DNA of 64,000 nucleotides, taken from Carcharhinus amblyrhynchos. Lineage: Eukaryota. Positions 30,001-39,600 of this stretch are shown in pieces. The stretch is from NCBI GenBank assembly GCA_965287045.1, contig OZ336889.1, positions 28,024,001-28,088,000 of the forward strand, read 5' to 3'. Position 1 is the stretch's first letter, and each line of letters starts with the position of its first letter. Made by a program: the position numbers.

Positions 30001-33000
30001 CTCCGACACGAGCCAATCGCTCCCGAGGCGCCCCGTTTGATTTTTATGAGGCTCGTTTCCTTTCAACGAAAAAAAAGGATATTCTCCGCCTTCAGGCAAC
30101 CCACTCTCTCCTCGAATTCCAGCAGCTGCTTTCTCATCGTCTCCGCCTCGCCCGCATCTTCCGAGTCGCTGAAACGGACGTGAGAAGGCTTTGAATCCTC
30201 AAACTCCTCGAACAATTCGCGGTCCCCAAAATCCAATCCCACCCTCTCGGCGGCCATCTTGTCACTGAGCGGTCAGTGACGTCGATTGGAGAGGGGGTTA
30301 AAGGGCGGGGTTCAGAGTGCAAAGCGATTGTGACCTGGGCTGCTTCCATAGTGATGGAGGGGAACTGCCTGGCTTGAATCCGGCAGCTCTGCTTGTTAAC
30401 CAGGGATTATGATCGCTGCTGATATTCATGAGGTACCTGAGTCTCCATACACCGAACAAAGAGCTTTAGCAATGAAGTTCCTCGGGGTGTGGAGACCAAT
30501 TGCTGTGTGTGCTGAAAGAAATTGCGAGGAGCAAATTGTTTGAAACCCCGGTTAAATTTTCAAGCCAAAAAAATGAGTGAGTTCCTGGTAGGCCGCGGCT
30601 TCCTTGTTGATGAAGAGTAGACGCTCGCCTTTCTCCTTCAGATGCCGATCAACTTATTGCGCATTCCTACATTTACCAGTCCTGAGAAAGGGTCATCCAG
30701 ACTTGAAACTTTCTCTCTCCATAGGTGCTGTCAGACCTGTTGAGATTGTCCGGCATTTTTTTTTGTTTCCCTTTCAGATTCTAGCATCCGCAGCTTTTAT
30801 GAGTGAAATTCCGGTAGGCAGAGGCCACCTTGCTAATGAATGTCGGAGACACTCGCCTTTCTCCCTCAGATGCTGATCGGCCTGCCGCATATTTCAACAT
30901 TTACTAGCCCTGACGAAGGGTCATCCCAACTCGAAACGTTGGCTGTATTCTCGCTCCACAAATGCTGTAAGACCTGCTGACATTTTCCCAGCATTTTCTG
31001 GTTTGGTTCAACAGTCACCTCTTTCTTTTTACTTTTGAAGTGTCTCTCGGAATGGGAACTGGTTTTGTTATGGGATCTGAGTAATTCTATACCTCCAGAG
31101 GGATGTGACGAACATTGAACCACGATGACTCTTGAACGTTATTCTGTGCGTTTGCCAGAATGGAGTGTGGGTCTCAGGAAAATCAGATTTGTATTCTTGA
31201 GTCCTCCTGATTCAGTTAAGGTGTGTCAAGATTATCAGGTGGAGGTTGGTATTATTTAAATATTAAACTTGATTGTTATTTATGTAAAGTTCCAAAGTCT
31301 GTTTGGGTGATGAAACATTAGTCATAGAGTTTTCCAACAGAAAGAGACCTTTCAACCCATTGTCTGTGTTGTGCTGCTAACAAGCATCTATCTATTTCTA
31401 ATTCCATTCTCCAACACTTGGCCCGTAGCCTTGTATGATATGGGTTTGTAAATTCCTAATTCTTAAGTATCATTTACATTTCAAATAGGAGAGTATGATG
31501 ACAGCTTAATGTATGTCTGTACTATGAATTTAATTTATTAGAATACATTAAAAATCAAAGTTGAAATTTGAGAGTGCAAAGCAAAGGCTTAGAATAGATA
31601 TAGCATTGGATTCAGTAACCCTTGAAGTTCTCTTATTAAGGTTTATGAAAGCAGTTGATATCCTAATGCAGCAAGACCTGGATGATATCCAGGTTTGTGC
31701 TGTCAAGTGGCAAGGAACATCTGAGCAGGCAATGACTATCTCCAACAAGAGACAATTTAACCACCATCCCTTGACATTCAATGGCATTGCCATTGTTGAA
31801 TCCCTCACTGTCAACATCCTGGGGATTAGTATTGACCAGAAACTGAACTGAACTAGCCATACAAAATACTGTGGCAATAAGAAAAGGCCAGAGGCTAGGA
31901 ATCCTGTGGTGAGTAGTTCAACTCTAGACCTCCTGAAGCCTGTCCACAATGTACAAGACACAAATCTGGAGCGTAATGGAATACTCCCCCCTTGCCTGGA
32001 TGACTGCAGCTTCAAAAGCACTTGAAGCTTGACACCATCCAGGACAAATCATCTTGCTTAATTGCTACCCCTTCCACAAACATTCTATCCCTCTGCCACT
32101 GATGAACATTGGCAGCTGTTCACCACCAACTTCTCAAGGGAAATTAGGGATGGGCTAATAAATGCTGGCCTAGCCAGTGAAGGCAATATCCTTTGAATTA
32201 AGAAAAAGTTAGCAATTACCACTGAATGCATTATAGCAATGCAAATATGAATCATTGCTTGGTTGCTGTATTTGAGTAAATGAAATGTGAATTCAATCAT
32301 AAAAACTCTTTGTAGTCAGTGTTTGTTTCTTTATTTTTTGTGTAGTGTAAAGGGACAAAAGTGTAAATGTCAATCTTACTCAGCACTGTATAGATTTAAT
32401 GTCCAGACTAAACAAAATGGTTAAAAACTGCACAGGACAAAATAGTTTGTCAAAACAAAATTAAGAGCTAAAAGAAAAAATAAAGTCTTGCATTTATACA
32501 GCACCTTTCACAAACGGCACTTCACTGCTAATGTAGTACCTTAATTGAAATGTAGTCAATCTGTGCAATATCCCATAAGAAGCAATGTGATAATGATCAG
32601 ATAACCTGTAGTTCAGAAATAAAATCGGCCAGGACACAAGGGAAGACTCTACTATTTTAAAATATTGTCACGAGATTTTTTTTGCCTACTTGAAAGGGTT
32701 GTCAGGGCCTTGGTTTAATGTCTTATTCATGTGGCATTTGGAGTACGCTTGGAGTACCAGCCTAGATTTATGGTTCTCAAAACTTTTTTTAGTTGAAGGA
32801 CTAAGAAGAGTGCAGAAAAGATTTACTGGGATGCTAATGGGACTTGGTGGATTCAATTATAAGGAGAGGCTGAATAGACTGGGATTCTTTTCTCTTGAGC
32901 ATAGGAGGCTGAGGGGTGATCTTACAGAGATCTATAAAATAACGAGGGGTATAGACAAGATAGGTAGTCAATATCTTTTCCCAAGTTTAAAACTAGAGGG

Positions 33001-36660: not shown

Positions 36661-39600
36661 GGTTTGATTGGGTGTTACTATGTGAGGCTGAGTGAGTCAG
36701 ATACGTGTGCACATGCACCCTCACTTGGATGTTGTCGCTCCCCCACACTCACTAGCCCCTCCCTCCCACACTCAAATGCTCCCTCTCCCCCACATGCGAT
36801 TGCTCTCTTTCCCACACCCCGGACAATGGGTCTCTTCACCCTCACCATGCATACCATACCTGCCTGCTCACCAGCCTCTCCTGGTCTGGCAGCCAGCCTC
36901 CTCCCATACATGCACAGCATGACAGCTGTCTCTCTAACCCAGCCTATGCCACTTTTTCTGGAGCATACTAGCTGCCACCAGAGTTGTTCCTCCTCCAATC
37001 ACAGATTGCTTGCTTCTCATGCTTTGTTGCCATGGATAGGCGTATGAGCATTTTGAAAACAACCTCTGGAGTCTCAGCAGTCTGGGGTATTGGATGGGCC
37101 TGGTTTCAACCAATGAATGACATATGCCTTGAAAAACTGCTGAAATCCTTCAAGTGTATTAGCAAAGGAAGTGTTATGGCATGTTGTATAAAAAGTAATG
37201 CAACTTTGTTTCCTGTCAAACCCAGTGGCTATCTAATACTTTGGACTACCATAATATCTGCTTTCTTGTGACAGGATTTGTGGAAAGCAAGAATAAATGA
37301 CCCCATTCTGAATGAAAAATATGACGTTAAGATTCTGCAAAACCTCCCAAAAGAAGAATTGCTTGAAAATTGCATTTCTGAAATGAGAAACCCCAAAAGT
37401 TTTAATGCATTACATTCAAGCATTCCCTGGATTAATGTGGTACCTGATGTTAATATATATGAGACAGCCGCTTCACCTTTGGATTCTACTTACAACAGTA
37501 TCGTTAATCAGGATGACCATAACTATTGTATACAAGAAGAAAGAACTTTACAACAAACTGAAGAACTTTGTGCAGATAACTCATCATATGTGGAGGTTTT
37601 GGGCTCTGATTCTTTATCTCTCAAATTTAGTTCAGTTTATCAGGTGTTTAAAATGTTACCATTGCAAATAGAAAAGGAACACGAGAAAACAATTACACTG
37701 TTGCTTGATTTTGTTGAACTCCTCATAAGTGAAAACATATCTATACAGAAGTTGGCTGATATGACACTGCAACTTCTGACCCATCTTCAAGACTTCATTA
37801 TCAAAACAGAAACCACTGAAACAGGGGTTAATTCTATTTATTGTAGTCGGATGCTTTATACTGTAAGTAATTGGTTGGGACATCAGTTTTATTCTGCTAA
37901 TGCCTCGATCAGCAGGCAAGTAGAAGAGTTTAAAACAACTCACATCGACAGAATCACAGATTTACCACCTGCTGAGGAATTGGTAGACAAACTTTTTCCT
38001 GAAGCGATGAAGGTTTTACTATTAAGCTGGATGGGGCTTGATGATGTTTCTACCTTGTGGAAACGTCAAAGTGAATATCCTATAGTGCTGCTTATATTAG
38101 AGTTTGCAAATCATAATCTAATCACTGGTGTAGCTCATGTTTTGTATTCTAGTTTGATCTGTAAATAAGCTTCTAGGTAGGAGTTTGGACTGCATTTAAA
38201 CTCGATGCCCCTGCTTCAATTTGGGTGTCTTTTGCAGTAGTTAAATAATCCTGAACAGTAAAAAATCATTTTTGAAGTCTAAACATATAATTGGAGTTGT
38301 TATTTCACACGTCATTATCATATTCTTGGTATGTTGTCATGAGTGGACTGGGGTGGGGGGGGCAATTTCAACAATAGACTATGAGTATGAGAAAAGCAAA
38401 ATATTGTAGATGCTAGATTGAAAATGTTGTAGACACAGGGCAGGTCTTATCAATGAAGGATTGGCAAGGTTATACTTTGAGACTGGACCTTGTTTATGTT
38501 TTGGATCATTTAAGAGTGATTTGGATACTAAACTGTTGATCCATTAAACTACTTTTATTATGAGAAAAGAGACATTTATGCATGAATTGCTTCTTAAATT
38601 TTCTCCTTACTTTTACATAGGTATGTTTATTTCTTATCTATTTTCACATCTATATTTAAAAAAATACAATAACAGCCTCTCTTGATCATCAGCCATCTCA
38701 ATTTCTGTGCTCCTGTCATTCACTGTAAGCTGCTTCCCTTGCTGTCCGTTCCTAACATTTTTGTTAAATCTGCTGTTGTTTGGTGAACCAACTTCTACTT
38801 TGCAGAGCCAAACACTTTGTCATCGTTCCCAGTTCCCAATGGCCCCACTACAGAACATCAAGCCATTGTACCAGGGCCTTCAACCAAATAATCCTCCAAT
38901 CCCTAAGAGGCAGCTTCAACATTCTTCCACAAACCAGACTGCTCTGGTATTTCAGTCTGTTCCAATCCCAGTGAACTTATTTTTTTCTCTCTCTCAATTC
39001 CTAAGTCCACTGTCTCCCAAGCTGCTTCAATTATGCTTCCTCACACCCAGCTTCCATTCTATTACCCTCATTTCTCTATTTCATCTGGACTCTGGGGTGG
39101 TTCCTGCAGATAGGAAAACAGCAAATGTGATGCCACTGTTTAAAAAAAAATAGTCTGTAGGCGGGTAACTGTAGGCCAGTTAGCTTAATTTCTGTACTAA
39201 GGAAAATGCTAGAAGATGCTTCAAGGAAGAAATAGCGAGACATTTGGTATAAACTGTCCCATTGGAAAGATGCAGCATGGATTCATGAAGGGCAGGTCAT
39301 GTTTGACTAATTTGGTGGAATTCTTTGAAAACATTATGTGTACAGTGGACAATGGGGAATCTGTGGATGTGGTATATATGGATTTTTGGAAGGCATTTGA
39401 CAAGGTGCCACACCAAAGGTGCTGCATAAGATAATGGTGCACGGAGTTACGGGTAATGTATTGGCAATGGGTAGAGGATTGGTTCACTAATAGAAAGCAA
39501 AGAGTGGGGGTAAATGGATGTTTTTCTAGTTGGTGATCAGTGACTTATGTGTCTCAGGGATCAGTGTTGGGACTGCAATTGTTTATGATTTACATAAATG

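What the first reader, a model, noticed from the sequence alone, without database searches (positions are those of the whole stretch)
31125..38168. Unrecognised spliced gene of about 484 aa between ZCCHC8 and RSRC2
Seen: seven plus-strand exons join in frame with no stops, and the last four have textbook splice sites, including an 894-nt terminal exon with no transposon motifs. The ORF track shows only pieces of it. Established: ZCCHC8 and RSRC2 are direct neighbours on human 12q24.31, and I know of no protein-coding gene between them there. Inference: this is an ancient gene kept in cartilaginous fish and lost or moved in mammals, co-regulated with the NEXT-complex scaffold. I cannot assign it to a named family. 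It is the best candidate here for undescribed biology.
Basis: partly seen in the sequence, partly recalled or inferred. Interest (0 to 1): 0.82.

Follow-up and report, generated by a model that had tools for sequence, protein, structure and literature searches.

The report
Uncharacterised conserved gene beside ZCCHC8
A real four-exon gene for a protein of about 425 residues lies head-to-head with ZCCHC8; databases already list it as an unnamed, unstudied protein of fishes and amphibians, and its first domain looks like a viral Bro-N DNA-binding module.

Summary
An orthologue from Mustelus asterias (P0001, 426 aa) maps onto the window as four coding exons with GT-AG introns: 31125-31244, 34698-34827, 35706-35839 and 37275-38168. 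They sum to 1278 nt, 425 codons plus stop.

Its donor at 31220 and its three extra exons have no orthologue support.

The gene is not unrecognised. 373 database proteins match the terminal exon, and the named ones are labelled "uncharacterized protein si:ch211-110p13.9" or similar. The named rows come from sharks, rays, chimaera, coelacanth, lungfish, amphibians and ray-finned fishes. None of the 95 named rows among the 120 listed is an amniote.

The family has no Pfam family, no PDB relative by sequence and no paper in the searched text.

It lies head-to-head with ZCCHC8, 867 bp between start codons inside one CpG island, and tail-to-tail with an RSRC2-like gene.

Fold, profile-profile and language-model comparisons all point weakly but consistently to a Bro-N-like N-terminal domain. 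A disordered linker and a conserved helical C-terminal domain follow it. I read the protein as a probable nucleic-acid-binding adaptor, which is untested.

The parts
31125..31244 (+). Coding exon 1 (40 codons from the ATG), the first strands of the N-terminal domain
   Evidence: tblastn of P0001 residues 2-41, 92.5% identity. Donor GAG|gttggt. In-frame TGA two codons upstream and A at -3.
34698..34827 (+). Coding exon 2 (130 nt, ends in phase 1); holds the most conserved N-domain motif
   Evidence: tblastn of P0001 residues 41-84, 97.7% identity. Acceptor ctttcag|, donor TCAG|gtatta.
35706..35839 (+). Coding exon 3 (134 nt); holds the second conserved N-domain motif
   Evidence: tblastn of P0001 residues 84-131, 93.75% identity. 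Acceptor ttttgcag|, donor CAG|gtactg.
37275..38168 (+). Coding exon 4 (894 nt with the TAA stop). By my own mapping from P0001 numbering it holds the end of the N-domain (to about 37349), the disordered linker (about 37350-37604) and the helical C-terminal domain (about 37605-38165).
   Evidence: Open frame 37272-38165 of 298 aa. 96% identical to P0001; 373 homologues. Domain limits from the AlphaFold2 model of P0001.
29000..31250 (.). CpG island that spans ZCCHC8 exon 1 and reaches exon 1 of this gene; a likely shared bidirectional promoter
   Evidence: CpG o/e 0.6-1.14 and GC up to 0.53 in 500-nt windows, against 0.29 and 0.39 for the whole window.
30063..30257 (-). First coding exon of the neighbour ZCCHC8; its ATG lies 867 bp from this gene's ATG
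   Evidence: Open frame 30063-30272(-) with an ATG. The only two PDB hits are the N-terminus of ZCCHC8, E 0.029 and 0.047.
6907..7818 (-). Terminal coding exon of ZCCHC8 (context)
   Evidence: PDB ZCCHC8 chains 7s7b_B at E 1.3e-31, 7z52_A at 1.5e-30 and 6c90_B at 1.2e-17.
43131..43397 (-). Last coding exon of the RSRC2-like neighbour (SMAP domain), convergent with this gene; about 4.96 kb between the two stop codons
   Evidence: Pfam SMAP PF15477, E 3.4e-8, 34.5 bits against a cut-off of 29.5. RS-rich frame 60863-61276(-) upstream in the same gene.

Best explanation
This is the shark orthologue of the vertebrate gene that NCBI lists as 'uncharacterized protein si:ch211-110p13.9'. It has four coding exons and encodes 425 aa. 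It is transcribed divergently from ZCCHC8 out of a shared CpG island and converges on the 3' end of an RSRC2-like gene.

The protein has three parts:
- a strongly conserved alpha/beta N-terminal domain of about 150 residues, which I read as a very divergent Bro-N-like module. Bro-N is the DNA-binding superfamily of baculovirus BRO proteins and phage antirepressors;
- a poorly conserved disordered linker of about 85 residues;
- an all-helical C-terminal domain whose last 60 or so residues are almost invariant from sharks to teleosts.

Most likely mechanism (inferred, not shown): the N-domain binds nucleic acid, probably DNA. It would use the Bro-N-like surface plus a family-specific basic helix. 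The invariant C-terminal helices would recruit a conserved protein partner or form oligomers, so that the protein works as a nuclear adaptor.

Shown: the gene, its exons, its conservation, its neighbours and the lack of any named family. Moderately supported: the Bro-N-like fold. Inferred only: DNA binding, partner recruitment and co-regulation with ZCCHC8.
For: Gene and conservation:
- Four collinear tblastn segments cover P0001 residues 2-426 at 92.5-97.7% identity, with GT-AG borders.
- 373 homologues have E <= 1e-3. The terminal exon is 96% identical to Mustelus, 57% to Callorhinchus and 44% to Latimeria.
- 62 columns are invariant in 70 vertebrate sequences.
- 194 clusters at 50% identity match the profile at E <= 1e-3, including distant full-length members.

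Architecture:
- AlphaFold2 model of P0001: N-domain residues 1-150 at pLDDT about 90, residues 155-239 below 50, and a helical C-domain.
- A member only 27% identical (P0136) gave the same topology at mean pLDDT 82.5.

Bro-N link, four lines:
1. Foldseek against BFVD with the P0001 model: 19 of the 50 listed rows carry 'Bro' in the name and 6 more are antirepressor or repressor-domain proteins. About 125-145 columns align, with target TM-score up to 0.56 and probability up to 0.99.
2. The same search with the P0136 model: 26 of 50 rows are Bro and 8 more antirepressor or repressor-domain.
3. hhalign of the family's N-domain against a Bro-N alignment that I built from a Pfam-verified 80alpha antirepressor, 18 phage loci and 4 named proteins. 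P was 3.9e-4 (A3, 78 columns), 1.1e-3 (A2) and 3.1e-3 (A1), in one register through three motifs. C-domain controls gave P 0.14-0.3. None of 150 column shuffles reached the A2 score: observed 24.7, shuffles mean 11.5, maximum 24.4.
4. ESM Atlas with the N-domain alone: 21 of 30 named-cluster hits fall in the Bro-N set, the best Bro-N cluster at 0.91.

Other points:
- One member (P0144) has a THAP DNA-binding zinc finger fused in front, Pfam E 1.2e-12.
- Bro-N is treated as a DNA-binding superfamily in passages of bioRxiv 10.1101/2020.11.28.402263.
- Promoter: 867 bp between the ATGs and one CpG island.
Against: - No Foldseek hit reaches E <= 1e-3 in BFVD (best 5.5e-3 and 2.6e-2) or in the PDB (best 1.1; Mbp1/APSES at 3.7).
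- hhalign probability is only 10-36%, and one column shuffle reached 24.4.
- Pfam Bro-N or KilA-N was never hit: not in 70 members, not in 55 members. PHROGs gave nothing consistent, and tblastn against phages gave nothing.
- The two AlphaFold2 models share much of their alignment, so the two fold searches are not independent.
- Bro-N domains of phage antirepressors may act by binding proteins rather than DNA.
- The THAP fusion is 1 of 55 members and could be a gene-model artefact.
- There is no expression, localisation or binding data of any kind, and no paper.
Confidence: 0.6

Rival explanations
1. The gene is real and conserved, but the N-terminal domain is not related to Bro-N. The resemblance would be convergence of a small alpha/beta fold, and the protein would act in some other way, for instance as a cytoplasmic scaffold or a small-molecule-binding protein. 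The family-wide invariant residues D52, H68, Y103 and G107 would form its site.
For: - No comparison with Bro-N is significant on its own: Foldseek E is at least 5.5e-3 and hhalign probability at most 36%.
- Pfam and PHROGs profiles never match.
- Four residues are invariant across 55 diverse members, which would also suit a ligand or catalytic site.
Against: - Three different kinds of comparison (3Di structure, profile-profile, language-model features) pick the same family out of very large libraries.
- The hhalign register is the same for three family alignments and two Bro-N alignments.
- In that register, two of the four invariant residues, D52 and G107, align with conserved D and G positions of Bro-N.
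Confidence: 0.25
2. One reading: a seven-exon gene of about 484 aa, unknown to databases, kept in cartilaginous fishes and lost in mammals.
For: - The seven segments are open and chain in frame by arithmetic.
- The ATG and the last three exons are right.
- The segment 34415-34468 has a good acceptor and donor and would be an in-frame 18-codon cassette even in the corrected model.
Against: - Shark, ray and chimaera orthologues are 418-440 aa and run straight from the end of exon 1 into exon 2.
- The three extra segments match no family protein (best E 1.1 in 268 proteins).
- 127 in-frame AG..GT cassettes occur in intron 1 alone.
- The gene is annotated in many species.
Confidence: 0.03
3. The reading frame is a transposon-derived or decaying sequence rather than a host gene under selection.
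For: - The introns and the intergenic promoter region hold interspersed repeats (30573-31009, 32808-32963, 35181-35449, 36204-36408).
- A Bro-N-like domain is typical of viruses and mobile elements.
Against: - None of the four exons overlaps a repeat found within the window.
- The frame is intact over 425 codons.
- The named orthologues range from sharks to teleosts, with the last 60 or so residues nearly invariant.
- The terminal exon has no Pfam or transposon family.
Confidence: 0.02

Closest known systems
NCBI gene models 'uncharacterized protein si:ch211-110p13.9' or LOC entries, for example Mustelus asterias LOC144502790 and the Carcharodon carcharias, Scyliorhinus canicula and Callorhinchus models
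   Same: Collinear over the whole length. The terminal exon is 96%, 90%, 87% and 57% identical to these four. The C-terminal 30 residues are identical in the shark, ray and chimaera sequences printed. The proteins are 418-440 aa long.
   Different: Nothing of substance: the window carries the orthologue of another shark. These entries are automatic predictions with no function, no domain and no paper.
Bro-N domain proteins (Pfam PF02498): baculovirus BRO proteins and phage antirepressors such as that of Staphylococcus phage 80alpha
   Same: - An N-terminal alpha/beta domain of about 100-150 residues, followed by an unrelated C-terminal domain.
- Fold-level matches dominate both BFVD searches.
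- Three motifs align in the same order, P 3.9e-4.
- 21 of 30 ESM Atlas hits.
   Different: - No Pfam HMM match.
- The family has its own basic helix and a longer insert between the motifs.
- The C-terminal domain is neither ANT/KilA-C nor ORF6C, the partners seen in the phage proteins.
- It is a single-copy host gene of vertebrates, not a viral or prophage gene.
Fungal APSES/SBF transcription factors (KilA-N fold, for example the Mbp1 DNA-binding domain, PDB 1bm8)
   Same: A possible precedent for a viral KilA-N or Bro-N type module fixed as a host gene. Passages of Medina et al. 2016 (PMC4862756) state that the fungal domain is homologous to viral KilA-N, and that the KilA-N domains in Pfam occur in eukaryotes only in fungi, Trichomonas and two insects.
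   Different: Structural similarity to Mbp1 is not significant here (Foldseek E 3.7, target TM-score 0.49). There are no ankyrin repeats and no sequence match. This is an analogy, not membership.

Membership tests
Orthologue group of zebrafish si:ch211-110p13.9 (uncharacterised vertebrate protein) | Full-length collinear similarity to annotated members | tested here: met
   tblastn of P0001 covers its residues 2-426 in four ordered segments at 92.5-97.7% identity. The terminal exon scores E 1.2e-183 against P0001.
Orthologue group of zebrafish si:ch211-110p13.9 (uncharacterised vertebrate protein) | Near-invariant C-terminal helices and the invariant N-domain residues of the family | tested here: met
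   The window's frame ends with the same C-terminal stretch as the shark, ray and chimaera proteins. The invariant columns are listed, and the aligned window segments show the residues in the places I compared by eye; I did not check every column.
Orthologue group of zebrafish si:ch211-110p13.9 (uncharacterised vertebrate protein) | Conserved position between ZCCHC8 and RSRC2 in other species | not testable with these tools
   No vertebrate genome collection or annotation was at hand. The protein searches give no genomic context.
Bro-N (Pfam PF02498) | Match to the Pfam profile at or above its gathering score | tested here: not met
   0 families for the exon. No Bro-N row for 6 orthologues, for 70 members or for 55 members. 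The positive control, the 80alpha antirepressor, scored E 7.3e-24.
Bro-N (Pfam PF02498) | Profile-profile similarity in one register across the conserved motifs | tested here: inconclusive
   hhalign gave P 3.9e-4, 1.1e-3 and 3.1e-3 with the diverse Bro-N alignment, and 3.2e-3 and 1.6e-2 with the narrow one. Probability was 3-36%. Controls gave P 0.05-0.3, and 0 of 150 shuffles reached the score.
Bro-N (Pfam PF02498) | Bro-N fold | tested here: inconclusive
   BFVD Foldseek: 19 of 50 and 26 of 50 listed rows are named Bro, with target TM-score up to 0.56, but 0 hits at E <= 1e-3. The PDB search gave none. ESM Atlas: 21 of 30 hits in the Bro-N set.
Bro-N (Pfam PF02498) | DNA binding | not testable with these tools
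   This needs a gel-shift or SELEX assay with the purified domain.
KilA-N / APSES | Pfam KilA-N match, or significant structural match to a solved APSES domain | tested here: not met
   No Pfam row. Mbp1 (1bm8) scored only Foldseek E 3.7.
Transposon or retroelement protein | Transposase or RT motifs, or repeated copies overlapping the exons | tested here: not met
   No Pfam family in the terminal exon. Within-window blastn finds repeats only in the introns and the intergenic DNA.

The most novel reading that the evidence does not exclude
An old animal host-gene family, retained in cartilaginous and bony fishes and amphibians and lost in amniotes, descends from a captured viral Bro-N/KilA-N-type DNA-binding module fused to a new helical partner-binding domain. 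It would be an animal counterpart of the fungal capture of KilA-N that gave the APSES/SBF factors. It would act as a so far unstudied chromatin or DNA-binding adaptor, expressed from a promoter shared with the NEXT-complex scaffold ZCCHC8.
Probability: 0.3. Interest if true: 0.7.

Novelty: new variant of a known kind. Interest (0 to 1): 0.5.

Why it matters
That a gene exists here is not new, because gene models are public. Three points could still matter:

- This is a deeply conserved protein family with no domain assignment, no structure and no paper, so it counts as "dark" proteome.
- If the Bro-N-like reading holds, it would be a vertebrate-wide host gene with a fold that Pfam-based surveys place almost only in viruses, prophages and fungi (passages of PMC4862756).
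- Its apparent absence from amniotes, together with orthologues in zebrafish and Xenopus, makes a knock-out test straightforward. It also raises the question of what replaced it in mammals.

The corrected exon model also shows how easily chance open AG..GT segments extend a hand-built gene model.

Tried and rejected
- Pfam on the terminal exon, on 6 orthologues, on 70 members and on 55 members: no family.
- PHROGs on 55 members: nothing consistent, at most 3 members per family, at E 0.14.
- PDB by sequence profile: only coiled-coil noise, NUDEL at E 0.21.
- Foldseek against the PDB: 0 hits at E <= 1e-3. The top rows (TRADD-N, PRPK, GntR-type) have rmsd above 10 Å and I rejected them.
- ESM Atlas with the whole protein: no score at 0.9 or above.
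- tblastn of P0001 against 50,697 phage records: no match.
A homologue search with P0180 returned 6 proteins without names. Their taxa stay unknown and I did not try to trace them.
- Staphylococcus phage SEP9 was fetched to find a Bro-N gene, but none was annotated, so I dropped it.
- The Bro-N set was too narrow (66-100% identity), so I added 18 phage loci.
- P0244 was considered for a domain-only fold and dropped because it is a truncated, aberrant model.
- Literature: 'ch211-110p13.9' gave 0 papers and '110p13' gave 1 unrelated paper. 'Bro-N domain' with 'vertebrate' gave 2 insect-virus papers, which I saw only in the listing.
- I ran no complex prediction, because I do not claim a specific binding partner.
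- I did not build, print or search the joined protein of the window's exons. Whole-length analyses used database orthologues.

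
Full report
**Observation**

The window holds a long plus-strand open frame at 37272-38165 (298 aa) with no Pfam family. A homologue search with this single exon found 373 proteins at E <= 1e-3. The best was Mustelus asterias LOC144502790 (P0001, 426 aa, 96% identity, E 1.2e-183). Carcharodon, Scyliorhinus and other sharks followed, then rays, Callorhinchus (57%), Latimeria (44%), lungfish, amphibians and many ray-finned fishes. 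Of the 120 rows listed, 95 carry a name. All of those are "uncharacterized", "hypothetical" or "si:ch211-110p13.9", and none is an amniote. The remaining 253 hits were not shown.

**Gene model**

Whole-length analyses used database orthologues instead.

tblastn of P0001 against the window gives four ordered segments that cover its residues 2-426. With the splice sites read from the sequence, the coding exons are:

| Exon | Coordinates | Borders |
|---|---|---|
| 1 | 31125-31244 | starts at the ATG; donor GAG\|gttggt |
| 2 | 34698-34827 | acceptor ...tttcag\|; donor CAG\|gtatta; ends in phase 1 |
| 3 | 35706-35839 | acceptor ...ttgcag\|; donor CAG\|gtactg |
| 4 | 37275-38168 | acceptor ...tgacag\|; TAA stop |

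They sum to 1278 nt, which is 425 codons plus stop. An in-frame TGA lies two codons before the ATG.

Three things count against it:
- The orthologues run straight from exon 1 into exon 2.
- Intron 1 alone offers 782 open AG..GT segments of 40-200 nt, of which 127 would be in-frame cassettes.

Its first donor and three exons are not supported. 34415-34468 could still be a rare cassette exon, and only transcript data can tell.

**Neighbours**

ZCCHC8 lies on the minus strand:
- Its terminal exon 6907-7818 matches PDB ZCCHC8 chains at E 1.3e-31.
- A CCHC knuckle lies at 21174-21215.
- Its first coding exon is 30063-30257. The only PDB hits to it are the ZCCHC8 N-terminus at E 0.029.

The two start codons are 867 bp apart and sit in one CpG-rich stretch at about 29000-31250 (CpG o/e 0.6-1.14 against 0.29 for the window).

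Downstream, a minus-strand gene ends at 43131-43397 with a SMAP domain (E 3.4e-8) and has an RS-rich frame at 60863-61276. That fits RSRC2. The order is therefore ZCCHC8 (minus), this gene (plus), RSRC2-like (minus). That ZCCHC8 and RSRC2 are direct neighbours in human is recalled, not tested.

None of the four exons overlaps an interspersed repeat detectable within the window. The introns and the promoter region do hold such repeats.

**The protein**

An alignment of 70 named vertebrate orthologues has 62 invariant columns, concentrated in residues 46-145 and 329-423 of P0001. A profile search of 1.84 billion cluster representatives found 194 clusters at E <= 1e-3, including full-length relatives only 21-36% identical.

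No Pfam family fits: nothing above cut-off in 6 orthologues, and no family shared by more than 3 of 70 or 2 of 55 members. No PDB sequence relative exists (best E 0.21).

AlphaFold2 on P0001 with the 70-sequence alignment gives three parts: an alpha/beta N-domain (1-150, pLDDT about 90), a disordered stretch (155-239) and a helical C-domain. A distant member, P0136, gives the same topology at mean pLDDT 82.5.

**What the N-domain resembles**

Foldseek against the PDB found nothing at E <= 1e-3. Against BFVD it also found nothing at that level, but the listed rows are dominated by one family:

| Model | Rows named Bro | Antirepressor or repressor-domain rows | Best E |
|---|---|---|---|
| P0001 | 19 of 50 | 6 | 5.5e-3 |
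| P0136 | 26 of 50 | 8 | 2.6e-2 |

In both searches the better-fitting Bro rows (rmsd about 4-9 Å) align some 95-145 columns. Target TM-scores reached 0.56 with the P0001 model and 0.54 with the P0136 model. In the second search many Bro rows are long alignments with rmsd above 20 Å.

To test this by sequence I built a Bro-N alignment from three sources:
- the antirepressor of phage 80alpha, where Pfam Bro-N scores E 7.3e-24;
- 18 diverse phage loci;
- four named proteins.

hhalign of the family's N-domain against it gave P 3.9e-4 (78 columns, probability 36%), 1.1e-3 and 3.1e-3 for three family alignments. The register was always the same, through the first hairpin and the two most conserved motifs of the N-domain (printed). 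C-domain controls gave P 0.14-0.3 and the reversed alignment scored 10.1. None of 150 column shuffles reached the observed 24.7, although one reached 24.4.

The ESM Atlas queried with residues 1-155 alone put 21 of 30 named-cluster hits in the Bro-N set (0.91). With the whole protein the best Bro-N row was only 0.84.

Against the link: Pfam and PHROGs profiles never match, tblastn against phages is empty, and every single statistic is weak. I put the chance that the domain is truly Bro-N-like at roughly 0.7.

**Mechanism**

Passages of a 2020 preprint describe Bro-N and KilA-N as viral DNA-binding domains (10.1101/2020.11.28.402263). One family member carries a THAP zinc finger in front.

The family adds a basic helix next to the Bro-N-like motifs, and its C-terminal helices are nearly invariant. 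AlphaFold2 placed the very last helix with low confidence in P0001 (pLDDT below 50 for residues 409-426) and with high confidence in P0136.

From this I infer a nucleic-acid-binding N-domain tethered by a flexible linker to a partner-binding or oligomerising C-domain. The gene would be expressed from a promoter shared with ZCCHC8. None of this is shown.

**Comparison and novelty**

I found no paper: 'ch211-110p13.9' gave 0 and '110p13' gave 1 unrelated paper. Supplements were closed.

Passages of Medina et al. 2016 (PMC4862756) report that the KilA-N domains in Pfam occur in eukaryotes only in fungi, Trichomonas and two insects. A vertebrate-wide Bro-N-like host gene would therefore be a new variant of that kind. 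Formal Bro-N membership fails the Pfam test and is inconclusive on profile and fold. The claim is that it looks and may work like Bro-N, not that it is a Pfam Bro-N member.

**Left unchecked**

- Transcripts.
- Amniote genomes and synteny in other species, because no vertebrate collection was at hand.
- The closed collections metagenome contigs and viral contigs.
- AlphaFold DB.
- Supplementary files.
- The names of the distant relatives.
- The joined protein of the window.

**Verdict**

This is a real, conserved and already annotated gene of unknown function. The evidence for a Bro-N-like fold is moderate. Interest 0.5.

Noticed in passing
window 30573-30769 and 30799-31009; related copies at 48715-48835, 36204-36408 and 1306-1417: An element of about 200 bp lies in tandem (72% identity) between the ZCCHC8 start codon and this gene's start codon. 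Related copies occur elsewhere, including an inverted pair in intron 3. It looks like a SINE or MITE inside the putative shared promoter.
   Followed up: partly
window 25278-25871(-), 56372-57094(-) and 32808-32963(+): Two long open frames (198 and 241 aa) resemble each other and, from memory, the tail of a LINE ORF2. A decayed copy sits in intron 1 (about 71% identity). No Pfam family matched the 241-aa frame or the intron-1 frame 32612-33013; the 198-aa frame was not scanned.
   Followed up: partly
window 35181-35449; copies at 58901-59089, 17185-17333, 40389-40521 and 26021-26090: A short interspersed repeat in intron 2 has four further copies in the window at 70-87% identity.
   Followed up: no
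window 36620-36680 and 33860-34260: The translated frames show a run of alternating Cys/Val in intron 3, which implies a TG/CA-type dinucleotide run, and a Thr/His/Ser/Pro-rich low-complexity stretch in intron 1. I did not run a repeat finder on either.
   Followed up: no
protein P0144 (unnamed source), residues 1-80: One distant family member has a THAP zinc finger fused in front of the N-domain (Pfam E 1.2e-12). It may be a real fusion or a gene-model artefact.
   Followed up: partly
protein P0173 (unnamed source), residues 1-115: Another member starts with a piece that, from memory, resembles a LINE reverse transcriptase. It is probably a mis-merged gene model.
   Followed up: no
window about 37510-37530 (P0001 residues 210-214): A short D-H-x-Y-C motif is conserved inside the otherwise disordered, poorly conserved linker. 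H211 and Y213 are invariant and C214 is at 90% or more in 70 vertebrate sequences. It may be a docking motif.
   Followed up: no
window 38169-43130: The interval of about 4.96 kb between this gene's stop and the RSRC2-like stop must hold both 3' UTRs. Poly(A) signal hexamers occur on both strands, first on the plus strand at 38543 (ATTAAA) and 40004 (AATAAA). The transcripts could overlap.
   Followed up: no
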